Source: a virus
UHGV virus genome: UHGV-0268347
Direction: 5' to 3' (one strand)
DNA: 27,718 nucleotides
In this document: piece after piece, positions 4,889 to 15,059 of the stretch
Layout: the number at the start of each line of letters is the position of its first letter
Numbering within the stretch: position 1 is the first letter of the stretch
Made by a program: the position numbers and the translations under genes
Notes under the pieces: model-generated
Database searches by the model: none
What the model saw: the letters and a program-made list of their open reading frames with translations, nothing else
Told to the model about the DNA's origin: nothing

Positions 4889-5527
4889 TTAGAGGTTCTT
4901 GATTACTTTGACTGCACGTCCTACGACTTCCACATCATCTACAGAACATTCAAATGAAGTGTCATCTTGGTTAACTACTATTTTGTTTCCGGGTATGCGC
5001 GCAATTTTGACGATGCTTTTAACTCCGTCCATATCGACTAACCAGAAGCCATTACTGACTTGTTTAACAGACGTATCCACTACAAAGCTATCATTAGCTG
5101 TTTTAACAAATAAAGCGTTGGATGAGTCACCATCGAGCAGGCTGCTATCAAGAAGAATTTCATCACTTGGCTGCAGTTCGCCGTTCTTCAGTTCAACACG
5201 TTTGATGCTAGGAGCAACGATCTTAGAAAGTGGTCTTACAGTGACGGAAGGTTCATTTTTGAGATTTATTTCTTCGTTCTCACACGCATACATATCTCCT
5301 TGACCAGTAGCCAGCCATAGAAGGGAAGCTCCTGTTTCAAGGGCACATTGGATTACCCATTCGGCAGGAAAGCTATCCCTTAAGTATCTGTTAGCCATAG
5401 TGCTTTTTGATACTTCCAGATGTTCGCAGAGCTGCTGTCGTGAGCTGAAGTTGTAAGCCTTAATAAGCCTATTAATCGCATCGCGCCCACCACTATCATT
5501 CCCCGCCTTGATTAAACTCATAATCAA
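4889..5527 (-). CDS. cI: CI-type lysogeny repressor
   Basis: 212 aa, divergent or convergent with the apl-cII operon and immediately upstream of int; N-terminal region resembles the phage CI-repressor HTH domain (186-like). Confidence 0.75.
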   Translation of the reverse strand: MIMSLIKAGNDSGGRDAINRLIKAYNFSSRQQLCEHLEVSKSTMANRYLRDSFPAEWVIQCALETGASLLWLATGQGDMYACENEEINLKNEPSVTVRPLSKIVAPSIKRVELKNGELQPSDEILLDSSLLDGDSSNALFVKTANDSFVVDTSVKQVSNGFWLVDMDGVKSIVKIARIPGNKIVVNQDDTSFECSVDDVEVVGRAVKVIKNL

Positions 5528-7713: not shown

Positions 7714-8567
7714 GCACCATCCTGAAATGGGCGGGAAATAAAACCGCCATTATGTCCGAACTGAAAAAACACCTTCCTGCTGGCCCGCGACTGGTTGAAC
7801 CTTTCGCGGGTTCCTGTGCTGTGATGATGGAGACGGATTACCCCAGCTATCTGGTTGCGGATATTAATCCTGATTTAATCAACCTCTATAAAAAGGTTGC
7901 CTCTGATTGTGAATCGTTTATATCTCGCGCCAGAGTTTTATTTGAGATCGCAAACAGGGAGGTGGCTTATTACAACATAAGGCAGGAGTTTAATTACTCC
8001 ACTGAAATTACTGATTTCATGAAAGCGGTATATTTCCTGTATCTCAATCGTCACGGTTACCGTGGTTTATGTCGCTATAACAAGAGCGGGCATTTCAACA
8101 TTCCCTACGGTAATTATAAAAATCCGTATTTCCCTGAAAAAGAAATTCGCGCATTTGCAGAGAAAGCCCAGCGTGCAACGTTTATCTGCGCAAGCTTTGA
8201 TGAAACGCTGGCGATGCTGCAGGTGGGGGATGTGGTGTATTGCGATCCGCCGTATGACGGTACGTTTTCCGGCTATCACACTGATGGTTTCACTGAAGAT
8301 GACCAGTATCACCTGGCATCCGTTCTTGAACATCGGTCATCAGAAGGACATCCGGTCATTGTTTCTAACAGTGATACATCCCTGATCCGTTCGCTGTATC
8401 GCAATTTTACTCACCACTACATCAAGGCAAAACGCAGCATCGGTGTAGCAGCTGGTGAGAGTAAATCTGCAACAGAAATCATCGCTGTTTCCGGGCCGCG
8501 CTGCTGGGTGGGATTTGATCCTTCGCGTGGCGTGGATAGTTCTGCCGTGTACGGAGTGCGTGCATGA
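7710..8567 (+). CDS. dam: DNA adenine (N6) methyltransferase, Dam family
   Basis: 286 aa; N-terminal KWAGNK motif ([15 protein letters not shown]), [16 protein letters not shown], catalytic DPPY ([10 protein letters not shown]); start overlaps the upstream stop and the stop overlaps the A start. Confidence 0.9.
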
Positions 8568-10978
8568 GCCATGCTGATATGAACAACTGCAGCGGCTTTA
8601 ACAAGGTCGCCGCAGCATTCTCATGGAACAGCCCGAAAAAGGCCATTAACCCTTATCTGGACCCGGCGGAAGTTGCGCCGGTTTCTGCGCTTTCAAACCT
8701 GATCACTCTGTACGCTACCGATAACGAGCAGGAACAACTGCGCCGCGAGGCACTGAGTGATCAGGTCTGGGAGCGTTATTTCTTTAATGAATCCCGTGAT
8801 CCTGTCCAACGCGAAATGGAGCAGGATAAGCTCATTAGCCGGGCAAAGATGGCGCATGAGCAGCAGCGTTTTAATCCAGACATGGTCATTCTGGCTGACG
8901 TCAACGCCCAGCCTTCCCATATCAGCAAGCCGCTGATGCAACGTATTGAATATTTCAGCAGCCTGGGCAGGCCAAAGGCTTATTCCCGCTATTTGCGTGA
9001 GACGATTAAGCCATGTCTGGAACGACTGGAGCATATACGCGACAGCCAGCTATCTGCATCTTTTCGTTTTATGGCAAGCCATGAAGGGCTGGACGGTCTG
9101 CTGATCCTGCCTGAAATGAGTCAGGATCAGGTGAAACGCCTGTCTACCCTTGTCGCTGCGCATATGAGCATGTGTCTTGATGCCGCTTGTGGTGATTTGT
9201 ACGCCTCCGATGATGTTAAGCCAGAAGAAATCCGCAAGACATGGGAAAAGGTGGCTGCAGAAACCCTGCGACTGGATGTCATACCGCCTGCGTTTGAGCA
9301 ACTCCGCCGGAAAAGAAACCGCCGCAAACCTGTGCCTTATGAACTCATTCCGGGTTCGCTGGCGCGTATGCTGTGCGCCGACTGGTGGTATCGGAAATTA
9401 TGGAAGATGCGTTGCGAATGGCGGGAAGAGCAGTTGCGTGCTGTCTGCCTGGTCAGCAAAAAAGCATCTCCCTATGTCAGCTATGAAGCCGTGATGCATA
9501 AACGTGAGCAGCGCCGTAAGTCGCTGGAGTTTTTCCGTTCTCATGAACTGGTGAACGAAGACGGCGACACGCTGAACATGGAGGATGTGGTAAACGCCAG
9601 CAGCAGCAACCCGGCGCATCGCCGCAACGAGATGATGGCCTGTGTTAAAGGCCTGGAGCTTATCGCGGAAATGCGTGGTGACTGCGCCGTTTTCTACACC
9701 ATCACCTGTCCGTCACGTTTCCATTCCACGCTAAATAACGGCAGGCCAAACCCGACCTGGACCAACGCGACAGTAAGACAAAGCAGCGATTATCTGGTCG
9801 GCATGTTTGCTGCATTTCGTAAGGCTATGCACAAAGCCGGGTTGCGCTGGTATGGCGTGCGGGTGGCTGAGCCGCATCATGACGGCACAGTTCACTGGCA
9901 CCTGTTGTGTTTCATGCGCAAAAAAGACCGCCGCGCCATTACTGCATTGTTGCGTAAGTTTGCCATCCGAGAAGACCGCGAGGAGCTGGGCAATAACACG
10001 GGGCCACGCTTTAAGTCTGAGCTGATAAACCCGCGCAAAGGAACGCCGACAAGCTACATTGCGAAATATATCAGTAAGAATATTGACGGGCGTGGTCTGG
10101 CTGGCGAGATCAGTAAGGAAACGGGTAAATCCCTGCGTGATAACGCTGAATACGTTAATGCCTGGGCGTCTCTGCATCGTGTTCAGCAATTCCGCTTCTT
10201 TGGCATTCCGGGGCGTCAGGCTTACCGTGAACTGCGATTGCTGGCTGGTCAGGCGGCAAGGCAACAGGGTGACAAAAAAGCAGGTGCGCCGGTACTGGAT
10301 AACCCGCGCCTTGATGCCATCCTGGCTGCTGCTGATGCTGGTTGTTTTGCCACCTACATCATGAAGCAGGGCGGCGTACTGGTTCCCCGCAAATATCACC
10401 TCATCAGAACCGCTTATGAAATCAACGAAGAGCCAACCGCCTATGGCGATCACGGTATTCGTATTTATGGCATCTGGTCACCCATTGCAGAGGGCAAGAT
10501 CTGCACTCATGCAGTGAAGTGGAAAATGGTTCGTAAGGCCGTTGACGTTCAGGAGGCGGCTGCCGACCAGGGCGCTTGCGCCCCTTGGACTCGTGGCAAT
10601 AACTGTCCCCTTGCTGAAAATTTGTACCAACAAGGGAAAGACAAATCAGCTGATGGGGATACCAGAACGGATATCACCCGTATGGATGACAAGGAGTTGC
10701 ACGATTACCTGCACAGTATGAACAAAAAAGAACGCCGGGAACTGGCTGCAAGATTACGCCTGGTGAAACCGAAACGGCGTAGAGACTACAAACAGCGAAT
10801 TACAGACCATCAACGACAGCAGCTCGTCTATGAACTGAAGTCCAGAGGATTTGATGGCAGCGAGAAAGAGGTCGATTTACTCCTTCGCGGCGGCAGCATT
10901 CCGTCAGGAGCAGGCCTGCGTGTCTTCTATCGGAACCAGCGTTTGCAGGAAGATGATAAGTGGCGGAACCTGTATTAA
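8564..10978 (+). CDS. A: Replication initiation endonuclease A (P2 gpA / 186 A family)
   Basis: 804 aa; metal-binding HWH motif ([10 protein letters not shown]) and tyrosine region ([10 protein letters not shown]) typical of rolling-circle initiators; position after the early operon. Confidence 0.93.
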
Positions 10979-11070
10979 TTACGCGGGTTAACAATTCGTG
11001 CTCTTAATAATACCAGGCATATCAGGCTGATGAACGTAAAAAAACGTTTTACATCAGTAAGATTATTGTA

Positions 11071-11090
11071 TACTGTAAATATAAACAGTG
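11071..11090. promoter_or_regulatory. LexA (SOS) box
   Basis: taCTGTaaatataaACAGtg: CTGT-N8-ACAG with an AT-rich spacer, matching the LexA consensus, about 40 bp upstream of the next ORF. Confidence 0.7.
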
Positions 11091-11131
11091 GTTATGCATA
11101 CAGTATTGCGTGTGGTGTCATAGGAGGAAAG

Positions 11132-11320
11132 ATGCAGGACTATTTTTTGGAGTCTTTGAAGCTCCAGCGCATTGATTTTTTTCTTAAGCTTGTAGCGGCC
11201 AGTGAGTGTAGTGATGAAGAGAAGGGGCTGGCTCTGCAGTGGGTTTCTGAATTGACTGATGAACTCATGGCAAAAATCAGAACCCACGAATACAACCGCT
11301 CAATGGATGTCATCAGTTGA
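11132..11320 (+). CDS. Hypothetical SOS-operon protein (62 aa), tum-region ORF
   Basis: ATG with strong RBS (taggagg) directly downstream of the LexA box; no family recognised. Confidence 0.45.
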   Translation: MQDYFLESLKLQRIDFFLKLVAASECSDEEKGLALQWVSELTDELMAKIRTHEYNRSMDVIS

Positions 11321-11330
11321 GGTGACTTTT

Positions 11331-11564
11331 ATGCGCATTGAAATAATGATCGATAAAGAGCAGAAGATTAGCCAGTCTACCCTGGACTCCCTTGAATCCG
11401 AGCTTTACCGCAATCTGAGCCCCCTGTATCCCAAAGCGGTAATTCGTATCCGTAAAGGTAGCGCCAATGGTGTTGAACTGAGCGGGTTAAAACTGGATGA
11501 AGACAAAAAGCGAGTGATAGAAATCATGCAGCAGGTCTGGGAGGACGATAGTTGGTTACATTAG
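11331..11564 (+). CDS. DinI-family protein
   Basis: 77 aa, MRIEIMIDKEQKISQSTLDSLESELYRNLSPLYPKAVIRIRKG...IMQQVWEDDSW; resembles DinI in N-terminal MRIE and C-terminal acidic W motif; RBS gaggtga. Confidence 0.7.
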   Translation: MRIEIMIDKEQKISQSTLDSLESELYRNLSPLYPKAVIRIRKGSANGVELSGLKLDEDKKRVIEIMQQVWEDDSWLH

Positions 11565-11797
11565 CGAACAGAATTTAGCCAAGCGATAAGTCATTCATCC
11601 AAGGGGGCGGCGTTTGCCGCACTTTTATGGATGTTAGAACTAGTATTTTAGATCTTTATTTTATTTAACATTTTGATTGTTATGCATTTTATTTGTTTTT
11701 GTTACTTTTGTCTGTAAAAATTTTGTAGGGTAAAATCATCATCGAAGTCGAGTTAAAATGATGCTACAATCCTTCAAGTATAGAGGGAGGACTTATT

Positions 11798-12838
11798 TTG
11801 ATTAAAGTTGTTGATCTTTTTTGCGGAGCAGGTGGCTTAACTCATGGTTTGCAACGAGCAGGGTTGAATGTGGTTGCAGGCTATGATATTGATGCTACAT
11901 GTCGGTATGCTTATGAAAAAAATAACAATGCTTTATTTGTGCAAAAAAGCGTCACTGAACTTGATGAAGGGGAAATAAGTAAGCATTTTAAGGATGCATC
12001 AATTAAAGTTTTAGCTGGATGCGCTCCATGCCAGCCATTTTCTAGTTATACAAATACTGATAAATCAGTAAAAAAAATAAAAGACCATCGATGGTCTTTA
12101 TTGTATAGCTTTGCTAAGCAAATTCAATTATGTGCTCCAGATATAGTCACAATGGAGAATGTTCCAAGAGTTATTAACCACAAAGTTTTTAAAGATTTTG
12201 TGAAGACTTTAAAGTCTGAAGGGTATTTCGTTTGGTATGATACTGTATTTTGTCCTGATTATGGAATGGCCCAAAGCCGATCTAGATTAGTGTTATTAGC
12301 GTCCAAGTTTGGCGAGATAAAACTAATCCCGCCAACACATGATAAAAATAACTATAACACTGTACGTAGCGTTATTGGTGGATTGCCTCCTATTGATGCT
12401 GGATCGAGTGATGAGAAAGACAGACTTCATTATGCTGCATCTTTATCACCATTAAATATGGAGCGAATAAAACATTCTAAGCCAGGTGGAACATGGAAAG
12501 ATTGGCCTGAGTACTTACGGGCGTCATGCCACACCAAAGAATCAGGATCTTCTTACACTGCAGTTTATGGAAGAATGAGCTGGGATAAACTTGGCTCTAC
12601 AATTACAACACAATGTATAGGTTTTGGTAATGGTCGATTTGGTCATCCAGAACAAAATAGAGCTATTAGCCTAAGAGAGGCAGCTTTGCTTCAATCTTTT
12701 CCTCTAACTTATGAATTTTGGCCAGCTGAAGTAAAAGTTGAACTCAGGAATGTTGCACGACTGATTGGTAATGCTGTGCCGGTGAGGCTCGGTGAAGTTG
12801 TTGGGCAAAGTATTATTGAACACCTTAAAAGAAAATAA
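11798..12838 (+). CDS. DNA (cytosine-5) methyltransferase
   Basis: 346 aa with canonical C5-MTase motifs: I DLFCGAGG, IV GCAPCQPFS (catalytic Cys), VI ENV, VIII QSRSRLVLL, X GNAVPV. TTG start with RBS agggagga and extended -10 (tgcTACAAT) upstream; visibly AT-rich. Confidence 0.92.
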   Translation: MIKVVDLFCGAGGLTHGLQRAGLNVVAGYDIDATCRYAYEKNNNALFVQKSVTELDEGEISKHFKDASIKVLAGCAPCQPFSSYTNTDKSVKKIKDHRWSLLYSFAKQIQLCAPDIVTMENVPRVINHKVFKDFVKTLKSEGYFVWYDTVFCPDYGMAQSRSRLVLLASKFGEIKLIPPTHDKNNYNTVRSVIGGLPPIDAGSSDEKDRLHYAASLSPLNMERIKHSKPGGTWKDWPEYLRASCHTKESGSSYTAVYGRMSWDKLGSTITTQCIGFGNGRFGHPEQNRAISLREAALLQSFPLTYEFWPAEVKVELRNVARLIGNAVPVRLGEVVGQSIIEHLKRK

Positions 12839-12863
12839 AAAGGGCGAATCGCCCTTTTTTTTA
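12839..12863. terminator. Bidirectional rho-independent terminator shared by the convergent gene pair
   Basis: Stem agggcg-aat-cgccct flanked by an A-run on one side and a T-run on the other (aaaagggcgaatcgcccttttttttag). Confidence 0.75.
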
Positions 12864-14819
12864 GATACCATCAACAATTTTCATTATTCGTGCAGCATCA
12901 TCTTTTTTGCTCTGATACTCAGAGTATGCTTGTTTGGATTGTATTATAAGATCGCTATATGTTAATACCTTTGCATTTATAGATTGTAGCTGTGAGCGAA
13001 TATAATTATCTCCACTTCCGTCATAACCTTTGCCGACAAGAAAAACTACATCTATCGGTGGTATTTTTCCGGCAGGGCAACTATTTGGGTTGTTTCTAAA
13101 CCACTGCTCTGTGGCAACAACATATTTCCTTCCTTGACCTACTAATGCCAAAATATCAGGATATACATTTGGTCTTTTCATTTCAATGATGACGTGTTTA
13201 CCTGAAACGGTTTTGAAGGCTATATCAATTCTTGCACCACTTTCAGCGTCAGGGTTAACCTCTTTCAATTCCTTAGTCAGGGTTTGTTCCATAACTGTAG
13301 AACCAGTAACCCTCTCCCATGATGGGTCTAACAGCCATAAGTGGTCATAAAGATATTTTTGTACAGCCTTCTCTAACTCATTGTCATCGGTGATTTTTTG
13401 AAATTTCTCAATAACTTTCAATCGCTGTGATGTAATCTCATAAAAAAGGCTTGCCTCAATATCATTTACAGAAGCAAAAACCTCCCTAAAATGTTCTGAG
13501 TTTAAATCGCTAATTTTATCTAAAGCCTCAAGGTTATCTTTTATTCTTAATCTTTCAAAAGCAAGAACTGTATTTTTTAATACGGTTTTTTTTGCAATTT
13601 TCTGGTTTTCTTCATCTCCAGAAAATCTAAATGTGTTAATTTTGCCTAGTAATTTTTCGGCGCTGTTTCTTTCATGTTTTGACATGGAATCAAGCCAATC
13701 ACTTACAGCAGGTGAAGTTTTTTTAACCTCGCTAAGACCTTTTGCTCTTCGCCATTCATCCCATTCTTTATCTATTTTTTGTAATGTCCGTTCTAAGAAA
13801 CCCTTAATCACAGGATAGCGTGGATCATTCTGCTGTAATTTCTGTCGGGATGAGGTTGCCATGTCAGGTTTTTCATTTTCATCTAAAAAATCTGCGACAA
13901 GTTCCCCTACTAAATAATTTGTAAAAACCTTTGCGCTTCCGAATTCAAGCAATATATCTTCTTCAAATACCCGCCCATTTGATATTACGGTTATCGTGTT
14001 GTTAGATATTTCAGGGTCTTTTTTAAGTTGAGATGGTTTCTCAACACTTCCTACATAACCAGTAATGAAATAATCTACGCCTTCAAAAGATAATTTGTTA
14101 TCTAGAAGGCTTTTTTTAGAAAGATTTTTGCAAGATTTTACTCTTGCGGGATCTGAACTACCAAACTCCCATAAAAATTCAAGATCTGAAAGGAAGTCTC
14201 TATCTTCAGTAGTTATCTCAGTGTCATTGATTTTAACTATAAAATCATGACCAGGACCAATTATGCTAAACCGTCTGGCAAGTCTTTTTCTTAGATAGGT
14301 CTGAGTTCTATCAATGGATTTTTTTAAATCCATAAGAACTATTGTCGTCCCTATACTAAAGTCTTTCGGAACATTAATAATATTTGCAACATATTGTTTA
14401 CTGCTTTTTATACAGCGTTGCAATTCATCAACGTCAACTTCAAATCCCTGAGGCGTTTGGCCAATTTTGTGAGAAAATACTTGGATTTTGTTAGCTAATG
14501 AAAACATTGCTAATTTACCAATGCCTTTTCTACCCATGACTTGTCGTTGTAATCCATCACTTTTATACCTTCCACTTTCTCTTCTGGCATATCCAACTTT
14601 TAGGAATTTATTAATGATGTCATCTTTTGACATTCCATGTCCATCATCTTTAATTATTACCTTTTCATTTTCAACATCTAGAGTGATGTCTACATTTTTA
14701 GCATCCGCATCCCAAGCATTTGAGATTATTTCAGTTAGAACAGCTGGTGTGTTAGAGTAAAGACTCATACCTAAATGATTCAATACATTCAGGTCTATTT
14801 TAATTTCGAAATCGGACAT
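12861..14819 (-). CDS. GHKL-family ATPase fused to a C-terminal PD-(D/E)xK nuclease domain (652 aa); candidate restriction/defence effector
   Basis: N-terminus has Bergerat-fold motifs: N-box EIISNAWDADAKN, G1 IKDDGHGMS, G2 GRKGIGKLAMFS. C-terminus has GARIDIAF...GKHVIIEMKRP (acidic D532 and E546-x-K548 after hydrophobic strands). RBS aaggaaagga; visibly AT-rich. Confidence 0.85.
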   Translation of the reverse strand: MSDFEIKIDLNVLNHLGMSLYSNTPAVLTEIISNAWDADAKNVDITLDVENEKVIIKDDGHGMSKDDIINKFLKVGYARRESGRYKSDGLQRQVMGRKGIGKLAMFSLANKIQVFSHKIGQTPQGFEVDVDELQRCIKSSKQYVANIINVPKDFSIGTTIVLMDLKKSIDRTQTYLRKRLARRFSIIGPGHDFIVKINDTEITTEDRDFLSDLEFLWEFGSSDPARVKSCKNLSKKSLLDNKLSFEGVDYFITGYVGSVEKPSQLKKDPEISNNTITVISNGRVFEEDILLEFGSAKVFTNYLVGELVADFLDENEKPDMATSSRQKLQQNDPRYPVIKGFLERTLQKIDKEWDEWRRAKGLSEVKKTSPAVSDWLDSMSKHERNSAEKLLGKINTFRFSGDEENQKIAKKTVLKNTVLAFERLRIKDNLEALDKISDLNSEHFREVFASVNDIEASLFYEITSQRLKVIEKFQKITDDNELEKAVQKYLYDHLWLLDPSWERVTGSTVMEQTLTKELKEVNPDAESGARIDIAFKTVSGKHVIIEMKRPNVYPDILALVGQGRKYVVATEQWFRNNPNSCPAGKIPPIDVVFLVGKGYDGSGDNYIRSQLQSINAKVLTYSDLIIQSKQAYSEYQSKKDDAARIMKIVDGI

Positions 14820-15059
14820 ATCCTTTCCTTGCTGAAGCTTGTAGGCAGAGCTTAAGCCTACTCATGTGAACAAAATCCCTCGAAACTAAACATTGATTTT
14901 GACTAAATGTCAAATGTAGATGTTGCCTTGTGTAATGCATATCTATGCTGCATGAATACGCATGATCTCTTAAGGATCGCTTTTGTTGAAGCACGCCAGA
15001 ATTGGCGGGCTTTTGCTTATGTCATGCATGTGCATGAAAACTACTACATGAAGCGGGCA

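What the first reader, a model, noticed from the sequence alone, without database searches (positions are those of the whole stretch)
11060..11564. LexA-box-controlled two-gene operon ending in a DinI-like gene (SOS induction module)
A near-consensus LexA box lies about 40 bp upstream of a 62-aa ORF followed by a DinI-family gene, at the position of the 186 tum (SOS antirepressor) operon. The 62-aa protein is much shorter than the 186 antirepressor as I recall it, so it may be a different SOS-inducible antirepressor or a DinI partner. This module probably determines whether the prophage is UV-inducible.
Basis: partly seen in the sequence, partly recalled or inferred. Interest (0 to 1): 0.45.

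Follow-up and report, generated by a model that had tools for sequence, protein, structure and literature searches.

The report
Split Tum SOS-induction operon of a prophage
This is the known DNA-damage switch of a Fels-2-like P2-family prophage in E. coli: a LexA-repressed promoter drives a 62-residue antirepressor (the split-off front half of phage 186 Tum) and a DinI-like gene, so the finding is correct but ordinary.

Summary
A perfect CTGT-N8-ACAG LexA box (11073-11088) lies upstream of a 62-aa ORF (11132-11320). A 77-aa DinI-family gene follows (11331-11564). Both sit directly after the P2 gpA-like replicase gene, where phage 186 has its tum operon.

The module is already known. It is about 94% identical in DNA to Fels-2 STM2728 + STM2726.1 and matches the "split tum" (tumA/tumB) of PSP3 and Fels-2 described in the literature. 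The deletion primers of a 2025 paper on the E. coli HS prophage DuoHS match the window exactly at both ends of the 62-aa ORF. That in-frame "Δtum" deletion, of a 98.4% identical protein, abolished mitomycin C induction, as did lexA(Ind-).

The 62-aa protein is therefore the inducing factor, most likely an antirepressor of the 186-type CI at 4889-5521. It is only a remote, profile-level relative of the first 70 residues of 186 Tum.

Three smaller points go beyond the finding. The operator is a colicin-type double overlapping LexA box (11073-11103), which the 186-type and PSP3-type loci lack. The type of Tum front module tracks the type of CI helix-turn-helix domain in 213 of 215 loci. Databases label the protein "hypothetical".

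Verdict: already known, low interest.

The parts
11048..11053 (+). putative -35 hexamer TTTACA of the tum promoter
   Evidence: Inference from phylogenetic footprinting. TTTACA-N15-TATACT is kept in the window, DuoHS and Fels-2. It is also kept in SopEPhi, MLG42 and ST437-OXA245phi4.1, whose 15-nt spacers have diverged completely. The generic promoter scan missed it because the spacer is 15 nt.
11069..11074 (+). putative -10 hexamer TATACT, overlapping LexA box 1
   Evidence: It is conserved in all 698-type loci inspected. In 186 the annotated p95 -10 likewise overlaps the LexA site.
11071..11090 (+). LexA box 1 (20-mer TACTGTAAATATAAACAGTG; core CTGT-N8-ACAG at 11073-11088)
   Evidence: Found. 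A perfect core is present in 78 of 83 related loci, always 59 nt from the ATG.
11088..11103 (+). LexA box 2 (GTGG-TTATGCAT-ACAG), sharing one base with box 1: a colicin-type double operator
   Evidence: The 31-nt pattern occurs once in the window against 0.00 expected. The ColE1 cea operator CTGTATATAAAACCAGTGGTTATATGTACAG has the same geometry. The double box is present in 76 of 83 698-type loci, 0 of 80 PSP3-type and 0 of 81 186-type. The box-2 spacer has 16 variants in the 76 loci that carry the double box.
11122..11127 (+). Shine-Dalgarno AGGAGG for tumA
   Evidence: Read directly from the sequence. It is invariant in related loci.
11132..11320 (+). tumA-like gene, 62 aa: SOS-induced antirepressor module
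   Evidence: phrog_698 E = 3.6e-38. It is 98.4% identical to ECHS_RS04495, the experimentally deleted 'tum' of DuoHS, and to Fels-2 STM2728. The DuoHS deletion primers match 11112-11134 and 11318-11340 exactly. dN/dS is about 0.07. The AlphaFold2 model is a helical hairpin with pLDDT 90.
11319..11325 (+). Shine-Dalgarno GAGGTGA for the dinI-like gene, overlapping the tumA stop codon
   Evidence: Read directly from the sequence. Only 10 nt separate the tumA stop codon from the next ATG.
11331..11564 (+). dinI-like gene (tumB equivalent), 77 aa
   Evidence: Pfam DinI E = 1e-22. phrog_189 positions 71-148 of 151. 84% identical to PSP3 TumB and 38.7% identical to residues 71-145 of 186 Tum. PDB 1GHH E = 5.7e-8.
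11606..11630 (+). terminator-like hairpin GGCGGCGTTTGCCGC followed by a T-rich tail
   Evidence: Found by the consensus scan. It sits where 186 has its partial terminator t95a. Function is inferred only.
4889..5521 (-). cI: the 186-type immunity repressor (210 aa), the presumed target of TumA
   Evidence: Pfam Phage_CI_repr (residues 13-77, E = 8e-33) plus Phage_CI_C (residues 104-203, E = 1.2e-40). 93% identical to Fels-2 CI. RefSeq annotates the same 633-nt CDS as 'phage repressor protein CI' in strain PEC1011.

Best explanation
Window 11048-11630 is the SOS-induction operon of a Fels-2-like (Felsduovirus, P2 family) prophage of E. coli.

In a lysogen, host LexA occupies a double overlapping operator (11073-11103) that overlaps the -10 hexamer and the transcription start region, and keeps the operon silent. 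DNA damage activates RecA and LexA cleaves itself. The promoter then fires and two small proteins are made from one transcript.

- The 62-aa TumA-like protein, predicted to be a two-helix hairpin, binds the prophage's 186-type CI repressor (4889-5521) and stops it from holding the lytic promoter. This switches the prophage to lytic growth without cleaving the repressor. Its contact is most likely the conserved N-terminal helix-turn-helix domain.
- The 77-aa DinI-like protein probably binds RecA filaments and tunes the strength or duration of the SOS signal.

Shown, in near-identical relatives: the gene is required for mitomycin C induction, and induction needs cleavable LexA.

Inferred: LexA binding to both boxes, direct TumA-CI binding in this lineage, the CI domain contacted, and the role of DinI.
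For: - Anatomy and synteny match Fels-2, PSP3 (tumA/tumB) and 186 (p95-LexA-tum).
- Experiment: in PMC12055606 the 'tum' gene ECHS_RS04495 of prophage DuoHS was deleted in frame. Primers NHR24 and NHR28 match window 11112-11134 and 11318-11340 with no mismatch. ECHS_RS04495 is the 189-nt CDS just upstream of the DinI gene and is 98.4% identical to the window protein. Delta-tum and lexA(Ind-) cultures do not lyse or form viral foci after mitomycin C.
- Remote homology to 186 Tum residues 1-70:
  - The 186 N-half hits phrog_698 at E = 5.9e-6, positions 6-44 to 6-44.
  - Both proteins hit phrog_8554, the window at 2.4e-8 and 186 at 3.4e-12.
  - A local profile gives E = 0.0038 at Z = 1e5.
- Operator conservation.
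- Purifying selection: dN/dS about 0.07.
- The cognate CI is of the 186 type.
- Coupling to CI:
  - The Tum front-module type matches the CI HTH-motif type in 213 of 215 loci.
  - Agreement of gene clusters with Tum type (adjusted mutual information, AMI): CI N-terminal domain 0.91-0.93, the physically intervening cII 0.53-0.73, CI C-terminal domain 0.61-0.66.
  - One identical TumA travels with CIs whose N-terminal domains are 73% identical at the median but whose C-terminal domains are only 32% identical.
Against: - No binding experiment exists for this lineage's TumA and CI. The antirepressor activity of PSP3 TumA is a personal communication cited second-hand.
- Pairwise BLASTP finds no similarity to 186 Tum or PSP3 TumA, and hhalign gives only 19% probability. 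Common ancestry of the front module is probable, not proven.
- The DuoHS deletion was not, as far as I could read, complemented, so a polar effect on dinI cannot be formally excluded.
- The Tum-type / CI-type association is confounded by lineage. CI C-terminal-domain clusters are also mostly type-specific.
- The 80 loci per type were the best matches to each query, not a random sample.
- ESSI2_ev015 pairs a 49%-identical TumA-like protein with a 186-like CI N-terminal motif. Two loci, L152 and L215, are discordant.
- The proposed promoter has an unusual 15-nt spacer.
Confidence: 0.88

Rival explanations
1. TumA does inactivate CI, but through the C-terminal oligomerisation domain or the linker, breaking up the CI multimer, rather than through the N-terminal DNA-binding domain.
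For: - 186-type CI needs its C-terminal domain for higher-order assembly (my own knowledge of the 186 literature).
- CI C-terminal-domain clusters are also rarely shared between Tum types: 2 mixed clusters, and the nearest neighbour has the same Tum type for 149 of 151 sequences.
- No domain-mapping data could be found.
Against: An identical 62-aa TumA co-occurs with CI C-terminal domains that are only 14-32% identical (minimum and median) and with CI lengths of 189-318 aa. The N-terminal HTH domain keeps the motif SKST[ML]A[NT]RYxRDxFPA[DE]W[VI]IQCALETG throughout.
Confidence: 0.3
2. The 62-aa protein is a partner or regulator of the DinI-like protein or of RecA and does not act on CI. Induction would follow indirectly from altered RecA activity.
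For: - The two genes are always adjacent in the 698-type and PSP3-type loci and are fused in 186.
- Direct TumA-CI binding has not been shown in this lineage.
Against: - ESSI2_ev015 and ESSI-2 carry a TumA-like gene behind a LexA box with no dinI.
- 186 Tum is annotated as inhibiting CI DNA binding.
- In PSP3 the upstream gene alone is reported to have the antirepressor activity.
- 186-type CI has no known RecA-dependent cleavage (my own knowledge).
- The tumA and dinI alleles recombine freely. PSP3 TumB is 84% identical to the window DinI while TumA is about 22% identical.
Confidence: 0.05
3. The DinI-like gene is the real inducer, and the DuoHS delta-tum phenotype reflects loss of translational coupling or transcript stability for the downstream gene.
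For: - The tumA stop codon and the dinI Shine-Dalgarno sequence overlap, so the two genes may be translationally coupled.
- I found no complementation data in the text I could read.
Against: - The deletion keeps ATG-TGA and the whole GAGGTGA-N-ATG initiation region of dinI.
- In 186 the DinI-like C-terminal products alone are annotated only as modulators of SOS induction.
- DinI homologues are widespread in prophages that use other antirepressors, such as the Gifsy phages.
Confidence: 0.04
4. The LexA box is a chance match and the small ORF is a non-functional remnant of a once-fused tum gene.
For: - A single CTGT-N8-ACAG is expected 0.33 times in a window of this size.
- The protein has no Pfam family and is annotated 'hypothetical' everywhere.
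Against: - The double box has 0.00 expected matches.
- The operator and the hexamers are conserved while the sequences between them diverge.
- dN/dS is about 0.07.
- The module is present in 1125 of 5426 complete E. coli genomes.
- There is a genetic phenotype in DuoHS.
Confidence: 0.02

Closest known systems
tum (ECHS_RS04495) plus the dinI-like gene of E. coli HS prophage DuoHS, and STM2728 + STM2726.1 of Salmonella phage Fels-2
   Same: - Same gene order: replicase A, double LexA operator, 62-aa ORF, 77-aa DinI.
- The TumA protein is 98.4% identical.
- The promoter-operator region differs from DuoHS at 4 of the last 94 upstream positions, none in a half-site or hexamer.
- The DuoHS gene is experimentally required for mitomycin C induction.
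   Different: - The window's DinI allele is only 84% identical to those of DuoHS and Fels-2. dS jumps from 0.06 in tumA to 0.44 in dinI.
- The CI is 93% identical to Fels-2 CI but only about 38% identical to DuoHS CI.
- The downstream cargo differs: a type II restriction-modification pair here, an orf97-like gene in Fels-2.
tumA/tumB of Salmonella phage PSP3
   Same: - A split operon behind a LexA box directly after the replicase gene.
- tumA (60 aa) is annotated 'UV induction of prophage'.
- TumB is 84% identical to the window DinI.
   Different: - TumA is only about 22% identical, belongs to a different PHROG (1993 against 698), and gives no BLASTP hit.
- It has a single LexA box 37-40 nt from the start codon.
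- PSP3 CI has a duplicated HTH domain of a different motif type.
Tum antirepressor and the p95 SOS operon of coliphage 186
   Same: - A LexA-repressed promoter after gene A.
- An N-terminal module followed by a DinI-like module.
- The target is a 186-type CI.
- The mechanism is reversible inhibition of CI DNA binding rather than cleavage.
- The internal GTG start of 186 Tum95.5 falls exactly where the separate DinI ORF begins here.
   Different: - The two modules are fused into one 146-aa protein in 186 (78 of 81 186-type loci).
- It has a single LexA box.
- The N-terminal module is related only at profile level.
- The operon continues into orf97 in 186.
Double overlapping SOS boxes of colicin operons (ColE1 cea)
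   Same: Identical geometry: two 16-mers sharing one base, CTGT-N8-NCAG/GTGG-N8-ACAG. Among the invariant alignment columns listed, about 33 fall in the 42-nt operator stretch (my count from that list). Fels-2 box 2, with the bases on either side, is identical to ColE1's over 22 nt.
   Different: It controls a phage antirepressor rather than a bacteriocin. Similarity is confined to the operator. Co-operative binding of two LexA dimers is known for colicins (PMC2994835) but is untested here.
LexA-controlled antirepressor operons of the Gifsy prophages (GfoA/GftA with a dinI homologue)
   Same: An SOS-controlled operon that encodes a small antirepressor plus a DinI homologue. Induction works by binding the repressor, not by cleaving it.
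   Different: The gene order is reversed, with dinI first. The antirepressors and repressors belong to lambdoid families. Sequence similarity was not tested here.

Membership tests
Peduoviridae Tum SOS-induction operon (186 tum; PSP3/Fels-2 tumA-tumB) | The operon lies immediately downstream of the rolling-circle replicase gene A, on the same strand. | tested here: met
   gpA-like ORF at 8564-10978 and tumA at 11132. The layout is the same in Fels-2, PSP3, 186 and DuoHS.
Peduoviridae Tum SOS-induction operon (186 tum; PSP3/Fels-2 tumA-tumB) | A LexA operator overlaps the promoter. | tested here: met
   At sequence level the operator spans 11071-11105 and overlaps the conserved TATACT hexamer. 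Physical LexA binding cannot be tested with these tools.
Peduoviridae Tum SOS-induction operon (186 tum; PSP3/Fels-2 tumA-tumB) | The first module is homologous to residues 1-70 of 186 Tum / PSP3 TumA. | tested here: inconclusive
   - PHROG profiles link the two in register: 186 N-half to phrog_698 at 5.9e-6, window to phrog_1993 at 0.0022, and both to phrog_8554.
- A local profile gives E = 0.0038 at Z = 1e5.
- hhalign gives E = 0.0012 but 19% probability.
- BLASTP gives no hit.
- The similarity is about as weak as that between PSP3 TumA and 186 Tum.
Peduoviridae Tum SOS-induction operon (186 tum; PSP3/Fels-2 tumA-tumB) | The second module is DinI-like. | tested here: met
   Pfam DinI 80.6 bits against a 24.2-bit cut-off. 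38.7% identical to 186 Tum residues 71-145 and 84% identical to PSP3 TumB.
Peduoviridae Tum SOS-induction operon (186 tum; PSP3/Fels-2 tumA-tumB) | The same prophage encodes a 186-type CI repressor (HTH domain plus CI C-terminal domain) as the target. | tested here: met
   Window 4889-5521: Phage_CI_repr E = 8e-33 and Phage_CI_C E = 1.2e-40.
Peduoviridae Tum SOS-induction operon (186 tum; PSP3/Fels-2 tumA-tumB) | The gene is required for SOS induction, and its product binds CI and blocks operator binding. | not testable with these tools
   The requirement for induction is shown for the 98.4% identical DuoHS orthologue. CI binding is shown only for 186 Tum (annotation; cited).
DinI family (Pfam PF06183) | The protein scores above the Pfam gathering threshold over the full domain. 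| tested here: met
   Residues 14-76 match profile positions 1-63 of 63, E = 1e-22. Solved E. coli DinI (1GHH) scores E = 5.7e-8.
Colicin-type double SOS operator | Two LexA 16-mers share one base (CTGT-N8-NCAG overlapping GTGG-N8-ACAG). | tested here: met
   Window 11073-11103 and ColE1 5063-5093 match the same 31-nt pattern, with 0.00 expected by chance in each.
Colicin-type double SOS operator | Two LexA dimers bind, giving very tight repression and delayed or heterogeneous expression. | not testable with these tools
   This is known for colicin operators (PMC2994835). There are no data for tum promoters.

The most novel reading that the evidence does not exclude
Fels-2-type tum operons may differ from the 186 paradigm in two ways that have not, to my knowledge, been described.

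(a) They are gated by a colicin-type double LexA operator. This would make prophage induction a late, high-threshold SOS event.

(b) Their TumA is a free-standing helical hairpin that recognises the conserved helix-turn-helix domain shared by many otherwise unrelated CI repressors. One antirepressor could then induce several heteroimmune Fels-2-like prophages in trans, as seen in Gifsy prophage cross-talk.
Probability: 0.4. Interest if true: 0.4.

Novelty: already known. Interest (0 to 1): 0.15.

Why it matters
This module decides whether a very common E. coli, Salmonella and Klebsiella prophage type wakes up after DNA damage, for example under fluoroquinolones or mitomycin C. About one in five complete E. 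coli genomes carries it. These phages often carry virulence or defence cargo, here a restriction-modification system.

The biology is already established. The practical value of this check is threefold:
- It assigns a name and function to a protein that every database calls "hypothetical".
- It points out the double LexA operator.
- It yields a testable prediction about which CI domain the antirepressor recognises.

Tried and rejected
- Pairwise BLASTP of the 62-aa protein against 186 Tum and PSP3 TumA gave no hit.
- hhalign of shallow family alignments was weak: E = 0.0012, probability 19%.
- A PDB sequence search with the family profile found nothing.
- Foldseek of the confident AlphaFold2 model against the PDB returned only generic helical hairpins, none with E < 0.001. 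It is uninformative.
- The generic sigma-70 scan found no promoter upstream of tumA. The conserved hexamers have a 15-nt spacer, outside the scan's 16-18 nt range.
- Alternative -10 candidates (GATTAT, TAAGAT) were rejected because they are not conserved in SopEPhi, MLG42 or ST437phi4.1.
- The longer 96-aa ORF from the ATG at 11030, and the 84-109-aa database versions, were rejected. They read through the promoter and operator. Conservation starts at the Shine-Dalgarno-preceded ATG at 11132. RefSeq and the DuoHS deletion both use the 62-aa start.
- I gave the antisense ORFs 11063-11287 and 11140-11313 no weight. They were not tested; the purifying selection measured is in the + strand frame.
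- Rfam found no RNA family anywhere in the window.
- Bunny et al. 2002 and Shearwin et al. 1998 could not be read. Their content is cited only through later papers.
- A full-text search for the operator sequence found no paper.
- A simple one-to-one specificity model (each TumA allele matched to one CI allele) was rejected. An identical TumA accompanies 41 or more distinct CI sequences.
Full report
**What is there.** The window is the left arm and part of the structural region of a P2-family prophage. The order is integrase, cI (4889-5521, minus strand), apl, cII, small early genes, a Dam-like methylase, and the 804-aa gpA-like replicase (8564-10978).

Directly after the replicase gene, read from the sequence, lie:
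- TTTACA (11048-11053), a 15-nt spacer, and TATACT (11069-11074);
- the LexA 20-mer TACTGTAAATATAAACAGTG (11071-11090);
- a strong Shine-Dalgarno sequence, AGGAGG (11122-11127);
- a 62-codon ORF (11132-11320);
- 10 nt that contain GAGGTGA;
- a 77-codon ORF (11331-11564);
- a terminator-like hairpin (11606-11620).

The second ORF is a clear DinI-family member: Pfam E = 1e-22 and PDB 1GHH E = 5.7e-8.

**Is the LexA box more than chance?** A single CTGT-N8-ACAG is not significant on its own in 27.7 kb (0.33 expected). Three further results settle the matter.

- In 83 loci that encode the same small protein, 78 have a perfect core, always 59 nt from the ATG. PSP3-type and 186-type tum loci carry a box at the equivalent place, with constant CTGT/ACAG and variable spacers.
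- The box is the first half of a double operator, CTGTAAATATAAACAGTGGTTATGCATACAG (11073-11103). The last G of box 1 is the first base of a second, degenerate box, GTGG-N8-ACAG. This 31-nt pattern has 0.00 expected matches.
- The pattern has exactly the geometry of the colicin E1 operator CTGTATATAAAACCAGTGGTTATATGTACAG, which I retrieved from plasmid ColE1.

The double box is present in 76 of 83 loci of this type and in none of 161 PSP3-type or 186-type loci. Its second spacer occurs in 16 variants in the 76 loci that carry the double box. In more diverged relatives (SopEPhi, MLG42, ST437-OXA245phi4.1) the surrounding DNA has changed beyond recognition. TTTACA-N15-TATACT and the double box nevertheless persist. 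That is a phylogenetic footprint for the promoter and both boxes. Colicin double boxes are known to bind two LexA dimers and to give very tight repression (PMC2994835). Whether the same holds here is an inference.

**What the module is.** The region is about 94% identical in DNA to Fels-2 (STM2728 'hypothetical' plus STM2726.1 'DinI family', the latter noted as similar to PSP3 TumB). It is similar to many Klebsiella, Salmonella and Escherichia P2-like phages. It is present in 1125 of 5426 complete E. coli genomes, at 100% identity in strains PEC1011 and HS4.

- PSP3 annotates the equivalent genes as tumA ('similar to 5' end 186 tum; UV induction of prophage') and tumB ('similar to dinI and 3' end of 186 tum').
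- Phage 186 has the fused 146-aa Tum behind the LexA-controlled promoter p95.
- Lemire et al. 2011 (PMC3121763), citing Bunny et al. [quoted passage not shown] - All lexA-null survivors in Salmonella LT2 had lost Fels-2.

**Direct experimental link.** Ortiz de Ora et al. 2025 (PMC12055606) deleted 'tum' (ECHS_RS04495) in frame in the E. coli HS prophage DuoHS. [quoted passage not shown]

- Their primers NHR24 and NHR28 match window 11112-11134 and 11318-11340 without a mismatch. These are the bases that flank the 62-aa ORF.
- In the HS genome, ECHS_RS04495 is the 189-nt 'hypothetical protein' CDS immediately upstream of the DinI-like gene.
- It is 98.4% identical to the window protein.
- The promoter-operator region differs at 4 of the last 94 upstream positions, none in a hexamer or half-site.

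**Relationship to 186 Tum.** The DinI half is clearly homologous: 38.7% identity to Tum residues 71-145. The internal GTG start of 186 'Tum95.5' coincides with the start of the separate DinI ORF.

The 62-aa protein is a different matter.
- BLASTP finds nothing in 186 Tum or PSP3 TumA, and MAFFT identity is about 21-22%.
- Profile methods connect them in register. The 186 N-half hits the window's family phrog_698 at E = 5.9e-6 (positions 6-44 to 6-44). The window protein hits the TumA family phrog_1993 at 0.0022. Both hit phrog_8554, at 2.4e-8 and 3.4e-12.
- A local profile of the 698 family plus ESSI-type relatives scores 186 Tum residues 1-70 at E = 0.0038 for Z = 1e5.
- hhalign gives E = 0.0012 but only 19% probability.

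This is no weaker than the similarity between PSP3 TumA and 186 Tum. I treat common ancestry as probable and functional equivalence as well supported.

The gene is under strong purifying selection: dN/dS about 0.07 at dS about 1.0-1.3. AlphaFold2 predicts a two-helix hairpin (helices 2-23 and 28-61, pLDDT 90). Fold and PDB sequence searches add nothing.

**How it probably works, and on what.** The cognate repressor at 4889-5521 is a 186-type CI with Phage_CI_repr and Phage_CI_C domains and is 93% identical to Fels-2 CI.

To ask which part of CI matters, I fetched 80 IMG/VR loci for each of three Tum front-module types: the window type, the PSP3 type and the 186 type. I then extracted the upstream cI genes.

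- Eighty loci that encode the identical 62-aa protein carry 41 or more distinct CI sequences, 189-318 aa long.
- Their C-terminal domains are as different from one another (median 32% identity) as CIs of different Tum types are (median 27%). Their N-terminal domains stay at a median of 73% and share the motif SKST[ML]A[NT]RYxRDxFPA[DE]W[VI]IQCALETG.
- PSP3-type loci have SSGTISTWVRRDFFPGDVVVTCALDTG, and 186-type loci have A[AS]SSLxNRYTRGxxSYDFAxxCALETG.
- The Tum type matches the CI N-terminal-domain motif type in 213 of 215 loci.
- Agreement of gene clusters with Tum type, measured as adjusted mutual information (AMI), is 0.91-0.93 for the CI N-terminal domain. It is 0.61-0.66 for the C-terminal domain, 0.53-0.73 for cII (which lies between cI and tum) and 0.62-0.70 for DinI.

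I infer, with roughly even confidence, that TumA contacts the CI DNA-binding domain. That fits an antirepressor that blocks operator binding.

Several caveats apply.
- Lineage is a confound, and the sample is the best 80 matches per query rather than a random one.
- C-terminal-domain clusters are also mostly type-specific.
- Two loci are discordant.
- ESSI2_ev015 pairs a 49%-identical TumA-like protein with a 186-like N-terminal-domain motif.

**The DinI-like gene.** It is dispensable for the basic design. ESSI2_ev015 and ESSI-2 have a LexA-boxed TumA-like gene and no dinI. It also recombines independently of tumA. The window's dinI is 84% identical at the protein level to those of Fels-2, DuoHS and PSP3, and 92% identical to those of Cartapus and MLG42. 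Its tumA, by contrast, is 98-100% identical to Fels-2, DuoHS and Cartapus, 84% to MLG42 and about 22% to PSP3. Against DuoHS, dS jumps from 0.06 in tumA to 0.44 in dinI. By analogy with E. coli DinI and the 'modulates SOS induction' annotation of the short 186 Tum products, it most likely tunes RecA-filament activity. This was not tested.

**Verdict.** The finding is accurate and its interpretation is supported, but the system is already known genetically and in the literature. Three points go beyond what I could find described:
- the colicin-type double LexA operator specific to this lineage (no paper in the searchable library contains the sequence; Bunny 2002 could not be read);
- the covariation between Tum type and the CI HTH domain;
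- the fact that all databases still call the protein 'hypothetical', or 'levan regulatory protein', often with a wrongly extended N-terminus.

Interest is low.

Noticed in passing
window 11073-11103: The tum operator is a double LexA box. It is not the single box the finding describes. The two 16-mers share one base, exactly as in colicin operons (ColE1 cea: CTGTATATAAAACCAGTGGTTATATGTACAG). It is present in 76 of 83 loci of this Tum type and in none of 161 PSP3-type or 186-type loci. No paper in the searchable library contains the sequence.
   Followed up: yes
window 4889-5521 (cI) and 11132-11320 (tumA); loci L009-L248: The type of Tum front module tracks the motif type of the CI helix-turn-helix domain in 213 of 215 loci. 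One identical TumA travels with 41 or more different CI proteins whose C-terminal domains are only about 32% identical. This suggests that TumA recognises the CI N-terminal domain and could act in trans on heteroimmune relatives. Loci L152 and L215 are discordant.
   Followed up: partly
window 11320-11331 (tumA/dinI junction): There is a recombination seam between the two genes. Against DuoHS, dS is 0.06 in tumA and 0.44 in dinI. PSP3 TumB is 84% identical to the window DinI, whereas PSP3 TumA is about 22% identical to the window TumA.
   Followed up: partly
window 11565-15000 (ORFs 11798-12838 + and 12861-14819 -): Low-GC cargo (33-39% GC against 51-57% in the flanks) sits between dinI and the portal gene, where Fels-2 and 186 have an orf97-like gene. 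It encodes a C5 cytosine methyltransferase (Pfam DNA_methylase E = 4.7e-57) and a convergent 652-aa HATPase_c_3 protein. The latter matches a PADLOC type II restriction-enzyme model at E = 1.1e-90. It is probably a prophage-borne restriction-modification defence system in the P2 hotspot. A promoter-like site at 11708-11736 precedes the methylase.
   Followed up: partly
L250 9001-9213 (ESSI2_ev015); L251 about 7971-8138 (Cronobacter phage ESSI-2): These P2-like phages have a stand-alone TumA-like gene (49% and 41% identical to the window protein) behind a single LexA box and no dinI gene. In ESSI-2 the ORF is not annotated at all.
   Followed up: partly
window 11030-11320; proteins P0001-P0120: The protein is 'hypothetical' in RefSeq and in nearly all named clusters of the 120 listed (482 clusters found) and has no Pfam family. 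It is occasionally mislabelled 'levan regulatory protein'. Many gene calls extend the N-terminus to 84-109 aa, reading through the promoter and the LexA operator.
   Followed up: yes
window 11048-11074: The only hexamer pair conserved across diverged relatives is TTTACA and TATACT, with an unusually short 15-nt spacer. The generic promoter scan missed it. The window has G at 11068, just upstream of the -10 hexamer, where most relatives have A.
   Followed up: partly
L009, upstream of 10001: In one IMG/VR locus the promoter and LexA box 1 are replaced by unrelated GC-rich sequence, with the junction inside the box-2 spacer. It may be a natural promoter-less, possibly non-inducible, variant, or an assembly chimera.
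   Followed up: no
L008 8293-8523 (phage 186) compared with window 11331: The annotated internal GTG start of 186 'Tum95.5' aligns exactly with the start codon of the separate DinI-like ORF in the split operons. The fused and split forms may therefore yield the same DinI-like product.
   Followed up: partly
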